Shown: positions 10,161 through 31,100 of the stretch, piece by piece | How positions within the stretch are numbered: position 1 is the stretch's first letter | How the letters are laid out: the number at the start of each line of letters is the position of its first letter | Source of the DNA: Okamejei kenojei | Taxonomy: Eukaryota | Direction: 5' to 3' | NCBI GenBank assembly: GCA_035221665.1 | Contig: CM069162.1 | Coordinates: forward strand, 16,306,001-16,370,000 | Length of the DNA stretch: 64,000 nucleotides | Program-made: the position numbers

Positions 10161-13100
10161 ATAAATAAACAGATAAAATGCAATAGGCTGTTATTTTTCA
10201 GAGCTTGGAGTTTGGTTGTGGTGGGTCCACTCCACTTTAAATTCCATTTGGAATATTTTTGGAGGACCATGAAGCCAAGAAGCAAGAGTTACTCCAGGGA
10301 GTTACTCCAGCTCCAGGGAGTAATTCTGCGTTGGTTTTCAACGGTCGTGGTGAGGCGGCGACCAGACAGCAATGGCGGCCAGATCTCCCGCAATGCAAAG
10401 GGAGGGAGAAAGTGACCGACGCCGACCAGTTGCTGTGGCAGTGCGCTTGTGCAGGGCGGCACATGCGCACAACCACGGTCGATGATGTGCTGGCCCTGGT
10501 TGTGCGCATGTGCAGGGGGAGGATGTGCAGGCCGTGGCAGTGCGCATGCATGTATAAGGAGACCCGAGAGCCGGACACGAATGGCGGGCAGAGATAGAGA
10601 GTGACAGAGAGAGATAGAGAGAGGGCCCGCTCAGAATTAAACAATAGGTGTCCCGGGTACTTGCCAAGCCGGGTAAAATGGCATGGCTTTCAGGTTGCCC
10701 AGTGGGACTGTAGGTTGCCATTGGCACCCGTGCAACCGTTAATTTCGAGCCCAGAACAGTTGTCAATGTCTCACCTTTTCAGTTAGTTAAAACAAAAAAA
10801 TGTGTTTCACTCACTTAAATAGTACGGTTCAGGAGAATGAGATGCGTGGCAGGCTTGTCATTCAATGCCTCAGAGTAGCTTTGCAGCAATATTCTGAGAA
10901 TCAAGAATGCAGTATTTGAAAATTGATAGATCCAAGTAAAGTAATTTTCCAACAAAGTAGTTGAAGAGCTTCCAATAATTACATCTTTGTCATATTTCAA
11001 TGCCATTTCATCATTCTGTGTGGCATGGAAGGAAGGCCTTCAGTCCACAGAGCCTTTGCTGACTAAATCAACTGCTTTCCACCATTCACGCAAAAAAAAA
11101 CTTTCTTTTTTGCGTACGAATTATCAACATCCATCCCCAGAATTCTCCAACCACCCATGTCACTAGGGATAGTTTACAGTAGCCAATATCCCTCACAGTC
11201 AGTATATATTTGGGGTTTTGAACAAAGTGGGAGCATTCACACAGTGACACAGCTACACAGCTTGCAGCGCTATTATACCATGTAGTTTTATGATTTTTAT
11301 TTTGTTAGTTGCTATAGTGCACCTTATATGGTTCTGCAACTATAATGATTGTGTTGTAGTTTAAGGCAATGGATGGATGCAGATATTTTGTCTATAGAAG
11401 AACCAAAGATCTTTGTCAAGGCCCCTGCAATGGGCCCCATAGTTCATGGCATGCAGAGTAATCCTGCCATCACACTGCTAGAGATCCTGTTATTTAATTT
11501 ATTAACTTACTCCTTAAATTCTCCTTGCTCCTCATCTCCCTTCCTACCTGTGACGTTGGTACCAAAATGGACCACAGCCTCCCTCTGTTCACCCTCCCCT
11601 CTCAGAATGTCCTGTGCTCGCTGCCTTAACCTTGGCACCAGGGAGGCAACAGAGCCTCCTGGAGTCTTGCTTGGGATTACATAAATGCCTGTTTGTACCA
11701 CTGACTATGGCTCACCTAGATTGAACCCTACTTGGCTGTTCAGCAGAGCCAGATGTGGTACCACTGTTCTGGTTACTACTACTATTTTCCCCCTCCACAG
11801 TATCTAGAATGGTATCCTTGTTTGAGAGGAAGATAGCCACACGAGAATCCTGCACTACCTGTCTGCCTCTCCTGGTGGTCACCCATCTATCTTCCTGAAC
11901 CTTTGAAGTGACCACCTGCCTATAACTACTGTATATAAACCCTTTCTGCATCCTATAGCTTCTCAGTCTGCCCAATTGCTGCTCCAATCGATCCACTGAT
12001 GGACACACTTCCTGCAGTTAAATGTATTTCATTATGCCAGTACTGCAACCAAGTTTCTACCTCATATGCTGTACAGTGCCATTCATTGCACCTCTCAGAA
12101 TCAACTCTAGGCGGATGGTCAATGTGTGTGTAATGGGAAAGTGTTTGTTATAATGGCTTGTTTGTTATAATGGATAGTTCATTTTACTTAAAGTTAACAG
12201 GTTTAGGGGATGTTAATCTTGGTTGTGTCAAATTTCATATGATTTTATCAGAATATTTTTCTTGAGTAGTGATGATTCCTTTGTCTTTCTGAGCAGAAGA
12301 TTCGAGGAATCTCACAGAACAGGAGTTCCTATTACTGCACAGACAGGATCTTGCAGAGGCCGTCCAAGACGTGCAAGGTTTAGTGGAATCTGTGACAAAC
12401 TGTGATGATATCCCATTGCCAGAGAAAACGGTATTGACACACACAATTTTAAAGAAATATCTTTATGTCTTTCAAATGTGATTGCTTCTCTGACACCCCC
12501 CCCGAGCACTGGTGATGTGGCTCTTGCCTGAGCATTAATTATCTTATTAAGATAATACTTGATCCTTTCCCATTGAACAATGAGGCAGACTCCCCACATT
12601 TTTATGTCACTAGCACAGGGTCTCAGACTGCATTGTTTTTTGTAGAGGTGGTAGTGCATAGATTTAGGAGTCAAAGGGGAAAGTGAGTTATTATTTTAAG
12701 CTATTTTGATTTTATTTAACGTATTTAATTATTTGTGTTTTTAGTTAACATTTAAAATTTTTTAAATGTTTTAATTAAATGTTCTTTTTTTATATCTTGA
12801 TAGTTTTAATTGTCTCTAACAATGATTACACTTGGCAAACCCAGTCTTCCACTTTGCCATTTGCCAGGGACATTTTGTGATGAGGATATCTTCATTGTAT
12901 TACGTGATACACTTGCCATCTAGTCCATGTACCAGGACTTTTGGGGTGAATGTCCAGCGATATAATCCTTCTGCATCTATAAGTGCGTCTATCAGTCCAT
13001 GTAAGTGTAGGTATGGATGGACAGCAGGTAGTGTTCCTGGGTGACCGGACAGTGTTCCAGGGACTGATAGAGTGAGATAGTTTGGATTGGGTTTGCATGT

Positions 13101-28100: not shown

Positions 28101-31100
28101 TGGCAGTGTTCTTGCAGGCCCATGAAGCGTAACGCAGAGGAGGGGCTGACTGCTGTCACCAGACAGTTGCACTCACAGAAAAGCTTGTCCCAATATACAA
28201 CAGACTTGAGAATCATTTAAAAAAATAATCTTAGAGTAATTACAATTATTTTTTCTAAAACAAATAGCATGTAAAAAGCACACACCCATGAACAGAATAT
28301 TTAACCAGCATAGTTGCATTAAACAATAGGCTTTTCTAATGATAAACAATTTCTATCATTCATTTAATGATAGTGCCTATGGCAGGTTTAGTTTGAGTCG
28401 GAGGACGAACTGGATTATCGTAAGCGCCTGATTTATCAGTAGTTGGCCACAATTGTTAGTGGCGAAGCTTCTTGACGAATAAATAACTCTATCATTGTCA
28501 AAGTGGAAGTAGGGTTGTGCAAACTCTTTGTGTGAGATTGCACATTCACTTTCTTAATATTTTAGATGAATGGCTTTGCAACATTAGGTCAGTGACCCTT
28601 CATTGTTGAAAATATTATGAGGTGTAAGTGAGATTTCCTGCATGCATGGATTGTGTGCTTTCAGGGAATGTTCCAGCACCATCACAGATGTAAGTGAAAG
28701 ATCCATCAGCATCAGATGTACTGATTGGTGTGAGCAAAGGTCTCAGCAGCATCACAAGAGTTTCTGACAAAAATAAAATGAAATATTATTTGTACTCAAT
28801 AACCATTTTTCCAATAGAATCTCGTGCATTTTGTAATTTCAGCATTTTACTGGCATTTCCATTAGTTTTGCTAACATTTTCTAATATAAAAGCAAGTGCA
28901 TGTATTTTGTACTTGTTGAATTAAAGTCTCTCTTGCTATCACAGGTGTAGGTTGCATTATGGTAAAAGTCCTTGCATTGTGCAAATAGCATTTCTTGTAT
29001 GTTCTGTTTTGTGATACAGTACCACATCACTGTTGATAAAAGAATGGGATTCTTCCATCTGTTTCAGTCAATTCCTGGGACAGATTCAAGGCCCATAATT
29101 TTTATGTGAAATTAATAGAGAGATGCTTTTACATGTGGTGGGGTAGTCAGACAAGAGTCAGCACAGTGGCACAGCTAGCTGGGAGAGCCGCTGCCTCACA
29201 GCACCTGAGACCCAGATTGGATCTTGGGTGCTGTCTTTGTGGAGTTAGCAAGTTCTCCCTGTGACTGTGGGTTTTCTCTGGGTGCTCTGGTTTCCTCCCA
29301 CATCCCAAAGCAGGTTTGTAGGTTAATTGACCTCTATAAATTGCCCCTAGTGTGTAGGCAATGGATGCAAAAGTGAGATAACAGAGTAGTGTGAACAAAT
29401 GACCAATGAACGGCGTGGACACAGTGGGCTGAAGGGCCTGTTTCCATGCTATATCTTGCAATCCATTAATCATCTAGGAAATAGGGCAGCAAAGGAAACA
29501 AATGGTGAACAATAATGCATTCCCACCACCTTTAGATAAAAAAAAACACCTCAATTAATAGGTGATGTGAATCGATAGAGACCACATAATTGCAATTTCC
29601 ACAACACGCAGTTAACTGTCTGTCACCTTCTGCAAAGTATATTGACGCTAAAAAATAAGAATAGTTTACATAATTTATACTAGAGTTATACAAAAATGCA
29701 GGAGAATTAGTTCAAGGAGCTGAGTAGTTATAGTTTATATTGACCTGACTAATTATTCAGTGCTGTGGCAGGTTGAGTGTATACATTGAGTAGATTTTTG
29801 ATATGCACTAAAAATATATATTTTTAAATTCTCATGAATTATTTGCATGGTTTATATTTCTTCCCACTGTCAGATTTTGAAGAGCTGTTGTTTCAAGGAT
29901 ACTGCTGGTCAGTCACTAGAAAGTATTCTGGGCAAAATTCTAGAAGAACGGCTCGTTCCTGCCCTGGTGTTTTGTAAACTCTTGCATATGATCAGTGAGT
30001 CCCATCCGTCCCTTGAATTGGTAATGAAGACAATGGAACATGCAGGTAACTGTACAAAGAAGGATTTGCGTTTAGATATCTTATGAGCATGGGCACAAGT
30101 AAGATTTATAGTTTTGTCCATAAAACGTTATTTTACACCGACTTGCTTTGTACCTCTACAGGTACCGTAAACAAACAAATTTACTTGCGTTCCAAAGTTA
30201 AGTCATCTTCAGGGATTGTAATGGTTATTTTCCATCTTACAAAGTTGGAGAACTAACTTTGATGCAATTGCTCTAACTTTCACAGATTTCAGATTCCTAG
30301 CCTGTCATTTTGTGAACTTGCTAAAAACGTAATGCCTACTACTACCTACTGTCAATAAAATGATCCCTTTAAGGACCAATTTTGAATCCACACCCACATT
30401 GTGGTTCAAGGCATAGATTGTAAAATTTCTCTGGAGTAAGCTTGTTCACAGCTTATTGATCCACAAAGAATGACACTTGCAGTATTTTGCTCAGCAATAA
30501 TCAGCAATGATTTTTGAATTGCCTCAGTTTGTAACTTTTAAAATATAATTTCAAGAAATATCCCTCGGAAAAGCAGAAGGAAAATAAATTAGTAAGAATT
30601 AGAAATACTTGAATCAGTAGCACATATGAGAGAAATTATGAATACTTCAGGTTGTTGGTTATCATGAAGGTGAAAGCAGTTTTCCTCTCTGCTTATAACT
30701 TTTAAAATCAAACTTCTGTTAGATTAAATAGTAATGTCTATATCTAAATTCAAACCTAGATTTAAGGAGCTAGCTAGTAGTTCCATTTCACCACTAAATG
30801 CAGGGTGAAATAATCATGAACATTTCATAGTCGTAGAGAGTCACAGGGCACAGAAACAGGCCCTTTGGCCCAGCTTGTCCATGCTGACCAAGATGCCCAA
30901 TCTAAACTAATTCCATTTGCTCACGTTTGTCCCATGCCCATATAAACCTTTTCTATCCATGTGCCTGTCCAAGTGTCTTTTAAATCCTTCTCTGTTTTTA
31001 AATGTCTTTGTGCATTGTCTATTCTTCTTCACAAAACTGCAGCCACCCAGGCAGTGAGCTCTGTCGGCCATAGATATGAATTCTGTTCTTCATTGAACAC

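What the first reader, a model, noticed from the sequence alone, without database searches (positions are those of the whole stretch)
12297..30045. Exon architecture records tandem duplication of a symmetric two-exon cassette
Seen: each unit is a 134-140 nt exon (phase 1-0) plus a 172-199 nt exon (phase 0-1), with the internal intron at the homologous position. Cassette lengths are 333, 333, 336 and 309 nt, all multiples of 3 and bounded by phase-1 introns. Established: class 1-1 modules are the typical substrate of exon shuffling. Inference: one domain cassette was inserted between BTB and fingers and quadruplicated, and whole units could be skipped in frame to change valency. This supports the domain boundaries independently of the protein similarity.
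Basis: partly seen in the sequence, partly recalled or inferred. Interest (0 to 1): 0.65.

Follow-up and report, generated by a model that had tools for sequence, protein, structure and literature searches.

The report
Four duplicated two-exon domain cassettes
A BTB zinc-finger gene, probably ZBTB40, carries four ancient tandem copies of a two-exon cassette, each encoding one small helical domain; the exon pattern is real but is an ordinary product of internal gene duplication.

Summary
On the + strand, eight exons with canonical AG/GT sites form four cassettes of 134+199, 140+193, 137+199 and 137+172 nt (333/333/336/309). Each runs phase 1-0-1.

The units are homologous. All 6 exon-B pairs and 5 of 6 exon-A pairs beat shuffles. 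In leave-one-out HMM scans of 2117 six-frame ORFs, the left-out exon is always the best non-training hit, and there is no fifth copy. No DNA-level similarity remains, so the duplication is old.

The internal phase-0 intron lies 23 residues before an invariant Glu in 4 of 4 units.

- Phase-1 introns run through this whole stretch of the gene (8 in a row), so 1-1 symmetry is not specific to the cassette.
- The B+A register is equally symmetric (0-0).
- Cassette skipping is in frame by arithmetic but needs two exons skipped together; there is no transcript evidence.

The fold is unproven. Only sub-threshold Pfam hits to HSR and CARD were found, and PDB, Foldseek and Atlas gave nothing.

The parts
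6895..7654 (+). Upstream coding exon with the start codon and BTB domain. The donor after 7654 is phase 1.
   Evidence: Pfam BTB E=2.9e-21, 76.2 bits against a cut-off of 20.5. Donor CAG|GTACAA. Phase.
12297..12430 (+). Cassette 1, exon A: 134 nt, phase 1->0, 44 full codons.
   Evidence: A NAGNAG alternative acceptor would start the exon at 12294. Leave-one-out HMM E=0.081, the best non-training hit.
13165..13363 (+). Cassette 1, exon B: 199 nt, phase 0->1.
   Evidence: Leave-one-out HMM E=8.2e-11. Sub-threshold Pfam HSR hit: E=0.034, residues 5-56 against model positions 47-98 of 99.
18679..18818 (+). Cassette 2, exon A: 140 nt, phase 1->0.
   Evidence: Leave-one-out HMM E=5.9e-4.
19039..19231 (+). 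Cassette 2, exon B: 193 nt, phase 0->1.
   Evidence: In-frame stops lie 3 nt before and 3 nt after the exon. Leave-one-out HMM E=6.1e-14.
23412..23548 (+). Cassette 3, exon A: 137 nt, phase 1->0.
   Evidence: Leave-one-out HMM E=0.29, still the best non-training hit. This is the weakest member.
25587..25785 (+). Cassette 3, exon B: 199 nt, phase 0->1.
   Evidence: Leave-one-out HMM E=2.6e-8.
27292..27428 (+). Cassette 4, exon A: 137 nt, phase 1->0. Its acceptor is preceded by a run of 22 C (27263-27284).
   Evidence: Leave-one-out HMM E=7.3e-5. Sub-threshold Pfam CARD hit: E=0.18, residues 10-33 against model positions 3-26 of 85.
29874..30045 (+). Cassette 4, exon B: 172 nt, phase 0->1. This is the shortest unit, lacking the roughly 9-residue tail of the others.
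   Evidence: Leave-one-out HMM E=5e-4.
32007..32429 (+). Next exon: 423 nt, phase 1->1. It holds an acidic linker, the first C2H2 finger and the first half of the second finger.
   Evidence: Weak partial zf-C2H2 match.
36667..36873 (+). Zinc-finger exon: 207 nt, phase 1->1.
   Evidence: zf-H2C2_2 E=1.1e-15 on the enclosing ORF.
39090..39254 (+). Zinc-finger exon: 165 nt, phase 1->1.
   Evidence: zf-C2H2 E=3.3e-13 on the enclosing ORF.

Best explanation
The region holds eight constitutive coding exons of a vertebrate BTB/C2H2 zinc-finger gene. Its architecture fits ZBTB40, but orthology was not tested.

The exons form four ancient tandem copies of one two-exon cassette. Each cassette encodes a helical domain of about 103-111 residues, with two or three helices from exon A and four or five from exon B.

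The array arose by unequal recombination within introns. Only symmetric, frame-preserving products could survive, which is why every unit keeps the 1-0-1 phase pattern and the internal intron at the same residue.

The most likely identity of the domain is a death-fold module of the HSR/CARD type, as in AIRE and the Sp100 family. I put this at about 0.5-0.6. On that reading the protein carries four covalently linked homotypic interaction domains between a dimerising BTB domain and the DNA-binding fingers, forming a multivalent platform for nuclear-body-type assemblies.

Shown: the exon anatomy, the homology of the units, the conserved intron position, and the age of the duplication.
Inferred: the recombination mechanism, the fold, and the function.
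For: - Anatomy and phases.
- Homology: all 6 B pairs and 5 of 6 A pairs are significant, against 0 of 16 A-versus-B controls. Leave-one-out HMMs recover the left-out exon as the best non-training hit in 8 of 8 cases, and no fifth copy appears among 2117 ORFs.
- Intron position: the four B exons align without gaps over columns 1-56, with an invariant Glu at residue 24. The A exons end 16-18 residues after an invariant Leu.
- Age: amino-acid identity is 16-31%. The only DNA matches between cassettes are intronic interspersed repeats.
- Gene context: BTB E=2.9e-21 and C2H2 fingers. The Atlas neighbours are chordate BTB-ZF clusters.
- Helical content: AlphaFold2 models of the two halves.
- Death-fold lead: 2 of the 7 sub-threshold Pfam hits are HSR and CARD, and they are in register. 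Exon A matches the N-terminal part of the CARD model; exon B matches HSR positions 47-98 of 99. Exon A (44 aa) plus the shortest exon B (57 aa) gives 101 aa against the 99-position HSR model.
- AIRE comparison: its HSR/CARD is also split over two exons and followed by a phase-1 intron. The variant c.308-1G>C is listed under intron 2 (PMC9175554, Table 1 passage), and exon 1 and exon 2 variants are listed under HSR/CARD (PMC8254246, table passage).
- Functional context: ZBTB40 has an unannotated 'long mid domain' and associates with ALT-associated PML bodies (PMC10480536 passages). [quoted passage not shown]
Against: - No Pfam hit reaches its curated cut-off: 0 of 7 hits from 8 exon translations. 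Unrelated helical families (NUP160_helical E=0.004, SHOCT-like 0.019, DNA_pol3_delta_C 0.023) score as well as or better than HSR and CARD.
- Profile and single-sequence searches of PDB chains gave no CARD or HSR match at E<=10.
- Foldseek with the exon-B half-model gave 2 matches, both at E>6. That model had mean pLDDT of only 66.
- The Atlas search with exon 2B gave no usable hit.
- The 2A-3A pair is not significantly similar on its own (444 of 2000 shuffles).
- There is no transcript evidence for any exon.
- ZBTB40 orthology was not confirmed: the Atlas named other ZBTB clusters, and the protein databases were closed.
Confidence: 0.7

Rival explanations
1. A mobile class 1-1 CARD module was inserted by exon shuffling from a donor gene into a phase-1 intron between the BTB domain and the fingers, and was only then quadruplicated.
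For: The array sits between phase-1 introns (after 7654 and before 32007), and each unit is a multiple of 3. Symmetric modules are the accepted substrate of exon shuffling (PMC6335736 passages). The sub-threshold HSR and CARD hits point to a domain family that also occurs in other genes.
Against: Phase 1 is gene-wide here, with eight consecutive phase-1 introns, so compatibility carries little information. The one relative whose gene structure could be checked, AIRE, has the domain at the very N-terminus starting at the initiator codon; it is therefore not a 1-1 module there. From general knowledge, classical 1-1 shuffling mainly concerns extracellular modules.
Confidence: 0.25
2. The cassettes are alternatively spliced units, and whole-cassette skipping tunes the number of interaction domains (valency).
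For: Every whole-cassette skip is in frame and gives the same junction residue as the full-length splice. Patthy argues that duplicated symmetric exons are prone to skipping (PMC6335736 passages). Exon 1A has a NAGNAG acceptor. An inverted pair of intronic repeats brackets exons 3B and 4A.
Against: None of the 8 single exons has a length that is a multiple of 3, so two exons 220-2445 nt apart must be skipped together. A reviewer in the same paper notes that skipped exons mostly lie in disordered regions and avoid domains (PMC6335736). A search for ZBTB40 plus 'exon skipping' found 2 papers, judged unrelated from their titles and abstract starts only. No RNA-seq tool was available.
Confidence: 0.15
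3. The unit is a helical repeat specific to this gene family and has no evolutionary link to the death fold. The HSR and CARD hits are noise from leucine-rich helices.
For: All Pfam hits are below cut-off, and unrelated helical families score equally well. There is no PDB sequence match, no Foldseek match and no Atlas hit.
Against: Two of the 7 weak hits fall in the same small fold class. They are in the correct N-to-C register and match the model length. The exon structure parallels what could be read about AIRE. All negative searches used half-domains only, which sharply limits their power.
Confidence: 0.35
4. The exons are chance open frames, and the pattern is an artefact of choosing splice sites to fit.
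For: There is no transcript evidence. The boundaries were chosen with the reading frame in mind.
Against: Leave-one-out HMMs pick out exactly these 8 ORFs from 2117. Stop codons hem in the exons within 3-58 nt on the 5' side. The full chain from the BTB exon to the zinc-finger exons stays in frame.
Confidence: 0.02

Closest known systems
[quoted passage not shown]
   Same: It has an N-terminal BTB domain, a very long middle region and a long C2H2 array split over many exons. The paper calls ZBTB40 the longest ZBTB member and treats the middle as one unannotated 'long mid domain' (PMC10480536 passages).
   Different: Orthology was not tested because the protein databases were closed; the Atlas named other ZBTB clusters. 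No paper found describes an internal fourfold repeat or a CARD/HSR in ZBTB40. Search for ZBTB40+CARD gave 2 papers, unrelated by title and abstract start. In the 6-term search only 1 of the 25 listed papers (541 matched) held ZBTB40, and it is the same unrelated paper. ZBTB40+AlphaFold gave 1 general review.
HSR (CARD-like) domain of AIRE and the Sp100 family (Pfam PF03172)
   Same: It is a helical domain of about 100 residues. Exon 1B gave a sub-threshold match over HSR model positions 47-98 of 99. In AIRE the domain is split over two exons and followed by a phase-1 intron after codon 102. It mediates nuclear-body localisation and self-association (PMC4548144 passages; PMC7118133, abstract start seen in the listing).
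   Different: AIRE and Sp100 proteins have one N-terminal copy; here there are four internal tandem copies. The score of 14.7 bits is below the 24.9-bit cut-off. I recall the AIRE intron 1 position as phase 0 after about codon 44, which would match exon A. No library search or paper I opened confirmed it.
Tandem CARDs of RIG-I/MDA5 and NOD2
   Same: They have several death-fold domains in one polypeptide acting as a multivalent nucleation surface. This comes from general knowledge and was not tested here.
   Different: They have two copies, at the N-terminus of cytosolic sensors. No sequence match was seen here; only exon 4A gave a weak CARD hit (E=0.18).
Class 1-1 symmetric modules of exon shuffling (Patthy)
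   Same: The cassettes are flanked by phase-1 introns, have lengths that are multiples of 3, have been duplicated in tandem, and can be skipped in frame (PMC6335736 passages).
   Different: The module is two asymmetric exons rather than one. It lies in a nuclear transcription factor. Phase 1 is shared by neighbouring non-homologous exons, and the 0-0 register is equally symmetric.

Membership tests
Tandem exon-cassette duplication | Significant similarity among the units | tested here: met
   All 6 B pairs and 5 of 6 A pairs beat 2000 shuffles, against 0 of 16 controls. Leave-one-out HMMs recover the left-out exon in 8 of 8 cases.
Tandem exon-cassette duplication | Same intron position and phase inside every unit | tested here: met
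   The internal intron is phase 0 in 4 of 4 units. It lies 23 residues before the invariant Glu, with no gaps, and 16-18 residues after the invariant Leu of exon A.
Tandem exon-cassette duplication | Units adjacent, collinear and on the same strand | tested here: met
   The order is 1A-1B-2A-2B-3A-3B-4A-4B on the + strand, with no other copy on either strand.
Class 1-1 exon-shuffling module | Module flanked by phase-1 introns, with length a multiple of 3 | tested here: met
   Lengths are 333, 333, 336 and 309 nt, and all five flanking introns are phase 1.
Class 1-1 exon-shuffling module | Same module with the same phase boundaries in unrelated genes (evidence of mobility) | not testable with these tools
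In AIRE the 3' boundary is phase 1, but the 5' end is the start codon.
CARD / HSR (death fold) | Pfam score at or above the curated cut-off | tested here: not met
   Exon by exon only: HSR 14.7 bits against 24.9, CARD 12.3 bits against 23.9. The whole spliced unit was not searched, by rule.
CARD / HSR (death fold) | Six-helix bundle fold | tested here: inconclusive
   The half-domain models are helical: 2 helices in exon A at pLDDT 83, and 5 in exon B at pLDDT 66. Foldseek against PDB found nothing at E<=0.001. A half-domain cannot show the bundle.
CARD / HSR (death fold) | Homotypic self-association or filament formation | not testable with these tools
   This needs biochemistry.
ZBTB40 orthologue | N-terminal BTB domain plus C-terminal C2H2 array | tested here: met
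   BTB E=2.9e-21. C2H2 fingers occur in at least seven downstream ORFs.
ZBTB40 orthologue | Best reciprocal similarity to named ZBTB40 proteins | not testable with these tools
The Atlas gave BTB-ZF clusters named ZNF317, ZBTB47 and ZBTB46, not ZBTB40.

The most novel reading that the evidence does not exclude
The unannotated 'long mid domain' of ZBTB40 is a covalent tetrad of HSR-type CARDs. These would share ancestry, including the internal phase-0 intron and the terminal phase-1 intron, with the N-terminal domain of AIRE and the Sp100 proteins. Four linked death-fold domains next to a dimerising BTB domain would act as a pre-assembled seed for helical or condensate-type polymerisation. That would explain recruitment of this transcription factor to PML and ALT-associated nuclear bodies.
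Probability: 0.4. Interest if true: 0.7.

Novelty: new member of a known kind. Interest (0 to 1): 0.4.

Why it matters
ZBTB40 is a recurrent bone-density GWAS gene and a reported telomere and PML-body protein. About 440 residues of its middle region have no assigned domain in the papers I could search.

Knowing that this region is four copies of one domain gives clean construct boundaries for structural and deletion work. If the HSR/CARD reading holds, it also gives a concrete hypothesis for how the protein reaches nuclear bodies.

The exon pattern itself is a textbook outcome of internal duplication and says little about exon shuffling.

Tried and rejected
- **PDB sequence searches.** I used profiles of the four A exons and the four B exons, and single exons 4A and 1B. 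The only hits were irrelevant ones at E>=0.35, or none at all.
- **AlphaFold2 on half-domains.** The alignments A2 and A1 gave helices only, with pLDDT 66 and 83.
- **Foldseek.** The exon-B model against PDB gave 2 matches at E>6, which are meaningless. I did not search with the exon-A model because it is essentially one long helix.
- **ESM Atlas.** Exon 2B gave no usable hit. The BTB exon gave generic BTB-ZF clusters, not ZBTB40.
- **DNA comparison of the four cassettes.** It found only intronic interspersed repeats.
- **Search for a fifth or degenerate copy on both strands.** None was found. The best other hit had E=0.024, in an ORF at 24631-24813 that lies inside the intronic repeat.
- **Order of duplication.** The (13|24) topology wins 62% and 66% of 2000 bootstraps in the A and B alignments, which is too weak to call.
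- **Rfam scan of the window.** No matches.
- **AIRE intron 1.** Searches for the exact AIRE intron 1 coordinate did not find it.
- **Local profile libraries.** None exist on the script machine.
- **Not attempted.** I made no join, search or fold of a spliced cassette. I did not use complex prediction on the two halves, judging it too close to the excluded joined step and unable to identify a fold. Paper supplements were closed and may hold AIRE exon tables.

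
Full report
**Scope and rules.** The window has no N. I do not take it for human. Its introns carry reverse-transcriptase and endonuclease ORFs of LINE type (RVT_1 E=8.8e-14 at 14924-15958; Exo_endo_phos_2 E=1.8e-8 at 496-978 on the minus strand). Nothing was compared with human sequence. The joined step, meaning any search or fold of a spliced cassette, was left out, and this limits what can be said about the fold. Orthologue comparison therefore stayed unchecked.

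**The observation.** Reading the + strand gives eight exons with canonical AG acceptors and GT donors:
- 1A 12297-12430 (134 nt) and 1B 13165-13363 (199 nt)
- 2A 18679-18818 (140 nt) and 2B 19039-19231 (193 nt)
- 3A 23412-23548 (137 nt) and 3B 25587-25785 (199 nt)
- 4A 27292-27428 (137 nt) and 4B 29874-30045 (172 nt)

Counting from the start codon at 6895, every A exon runs from phase 1 to 0 and every B exon from phase 0 to 1.

The boundaries are not free choices. In-frame stops lie 3-58 nt upstream of each exon start. The chosen acceptor is the first AG in the open frame for 7 of 8 exons. The exception, 1A, has a NAGNAG alternative 3 nt upstream. There is no transcript evidence, and the 1A donor (GTATTG) is modest.

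**Homology of the units.** Smith-Waterman scores were tested against 2000 shuffles. All 6 exon-B pairs were reached by at most 4 of 2000 shuffles. Among exon-A pairs, 5 of 6 were reached by at most 16 of 2000; the 2A-3A pair failed at 444 of 2000. None of the 16 A-versus-B control pairs fell below 37 of 500.

HMMs built from three units and searched against all 2117 six-frame ORFs of at least 20 aa always placed the left-out exon first among non-training ORFs. E-values were 8.2e-11, 6.1e-14, 2.6e-8 and 5e-4 for B exons, and 0.081, 5.9e-4, 0.29 and 7.3e-5 for A exons. There is no fifth copy on either strand; the best other hit (E=0.024) is an ORF at 24631-24813 inside the intronic interspersed repeat.

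Identity between units is 16-31%. At DNA level the cassettes share only intronic interspersed repeats, so the duplications are old.

**Intron position.** The four B exons align without a gap over columns 1-56, with an invariant Glu at residue 24. The A exons end 16, 18, 16 and 17 residues after the invariant Leu. The internal intron is therefore at the same place and phase in 4 of 4 units, as expected for copies of one two-exon ancestor.

**What the phases do and do not show.** The introns after 7654, 13363, 19231, 25785, 30045, 32429, 36873 and 39254 are all phase 1. The next three exons (423, 207 and 165 nt, carrying zinc fingers) are also 1-1. Phase-1 symmetry is thus a property of this whole part of the gene, not a mark of the cassette.

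Any surviving internal duplication must be symmetric, so symmetry is a filter rather than a record of insertion from outside. The shifted block, exon B(n) plus exon A(n+1), is also symmetric (0-0; 339, 330 and 336 nt). Recombination in either intron class would give the same array. Only the ends of the array, which begins with an A exon and ends with a B exon, fix the domain register.

Whole-cassette skipping is in frame. Because all five phase-1 donors end in G, each skip keeps the junction residue of the acceptor. But no single exon has a length that is a multiple of 3, so two exons 220-2445 nt apart would have to be skipped together. Patthy's argument that duplicated symmetric exons are prone to skipping is in the same paper as a reviewer's point that skipped exons mostly avoid domains (PMC6335736, passages read).

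**Order of duplication.** In both exon alignments the (13|24) grouping is weakly favoured, winning 1241 and 1310 of 2000 bootstraps. This would fit a one-to-two-to-four history, but it is not significant.

**What the domain is.** The gene has a BTB domain (E=2.9e-21) and C2H2 fingers. The Atlas neighbours of the BTB exon are chordate BTB-ZF clusters, none named ZBTB40. The ZBTB40 label therefore rests on architecture and on the paper's description of ZBTB40 as the longest ZBTB member with a 'long mid domain' (PMC10480536, passages).

Exon-by-exon Pfam scans gave 7 hits in 8 translations, none above cut-off. Two of the seven are HSR (exon 1B, E=0.034, residues 5-56 on model positions 47-98 of 99) and CARD (exon 4A, E=0.18, residues 10-33 on model positions 3-26 of 85). 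They are in the right N-to-C register, and 44 + 57 residues match the 99-position HSR model. Unrelated helical families scored as well or better: NUP160_helical 0.004, SHOCT-like 0.019, DNA_pol3_delta_C 0.023.

PDB sequence searches, Foldseek with the exon-B half-model and the Atlas gave nothing. The half-domain models are helical, with pLDDT 66 and 83. All these negatives used half-domains.

**Link to AIRE and Sp100.** The literature treats HSR as CARD-like and needed for nuclear-body localisation and homodimerisation (PMC4548144, passages). The AIRE CARD forms filaments (PMC7118133, abstract start seen in the search listing).

AIRE's HSR/CARD is encoded on exons 1 and 2 (PMC8254246, table passage). 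Intron 2 follows c.307, as shown by the variant c.308-1G>C (PMC9175554, table passage). That is phase 1 after 102 codons, like the end of the cassette.

From memory only: AIRE intron 1 is phase 0 after about 44 codons, and the first helix of its exon 1 resembles exon A. Neither point could be verified. I give them as a lead, not a test.

ZBTB40 associates with ALT-associated PML bodies (PMC10480536 abstract passage), which fits an HSR-type function.

**Literature.** No paper found links ZBTB40 to CARD, HSR or the death fold:
- ZBTB40 plus CARD: 2 papers, unrelated by title and abstract start.
- The 6-term search matched 541 papers. Among the 25 listed, only 1 held ZBTB40, and it is the same unrelated paper.
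- ZBTB40 plus AlphaFold: 1 general review, seen in the listing only.
- ZBTB40 plus 'exon skipping': 2 papers, unrelated by title and abstract start.

Supplements were closed.

**Verdict.** It records an old fourfold tandem duplication of a two-exon domain cassette. The exon-shuffling and valency-by-skipping readings are compatible with the sequence but not supported beyond arithmetic. The HSR/CARD identity is a reasonable lead, at about 0.5-0.6, and needs a whole-unit fold or profile comparison.

Noticed in passing
window 4760-4998 (within the GC-rich stretch 4001-6000): There is a 40-nt tandem repeat of about 6 copies at 85% match (also scored as periods of 80 and 120), about 1.9 kb upstream of the BTB exon. 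It lies in the only stretch of the window with 56% GC, so it may be a CpG island or promoter region of the gene.
   Followed up: no
window 24687-24986 and 29166-29456: An interspersed repeat of about 300 nt occurs in inverted orientation (71% identity over 309 columns, E=4e-36) in the internal introns of cassettes 3 and 4. The pair brackets exons 3B and 4A, which together form a 336-nt 0-0 block. Such inverted pairs can favour back-splicing or skipping.
   Followed up: no
window 27263-27284: A run of 22 C, followed by TCCCC, sits immediately upstream of the exon 4A acceptor. It is an unusual homopolymeric pyrimidine tract.
   Followed up: no
window 12292-12297: Exon 1A has a NAGNAG tandem acceptor (GAGCAG|AAG). 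Using the upstream AG would add one codon in frame.
   Followed up: partly
window 32429 / 36667: The second C2H2 finger is split by a phase-1 intron. The Cys pair is at the end of exon 32007-32429 and the His pair at the start of exon 36667-36873. The zinc-finger exons 423, 207 and 165 nt long are all phase 1-1.
   Followed up: partly
window 14924-15958 (+), 496-978 (-), 52437-53583 (-): LINE-type reverse-transcriptase and endonuclease ORFs lie in the introns and flanks. RVT_1 scores E=8.8e-14 and Exo_endo_phos_2 E=1.8e-8. The third region was seen only as ORFs.
   Followed up: partly
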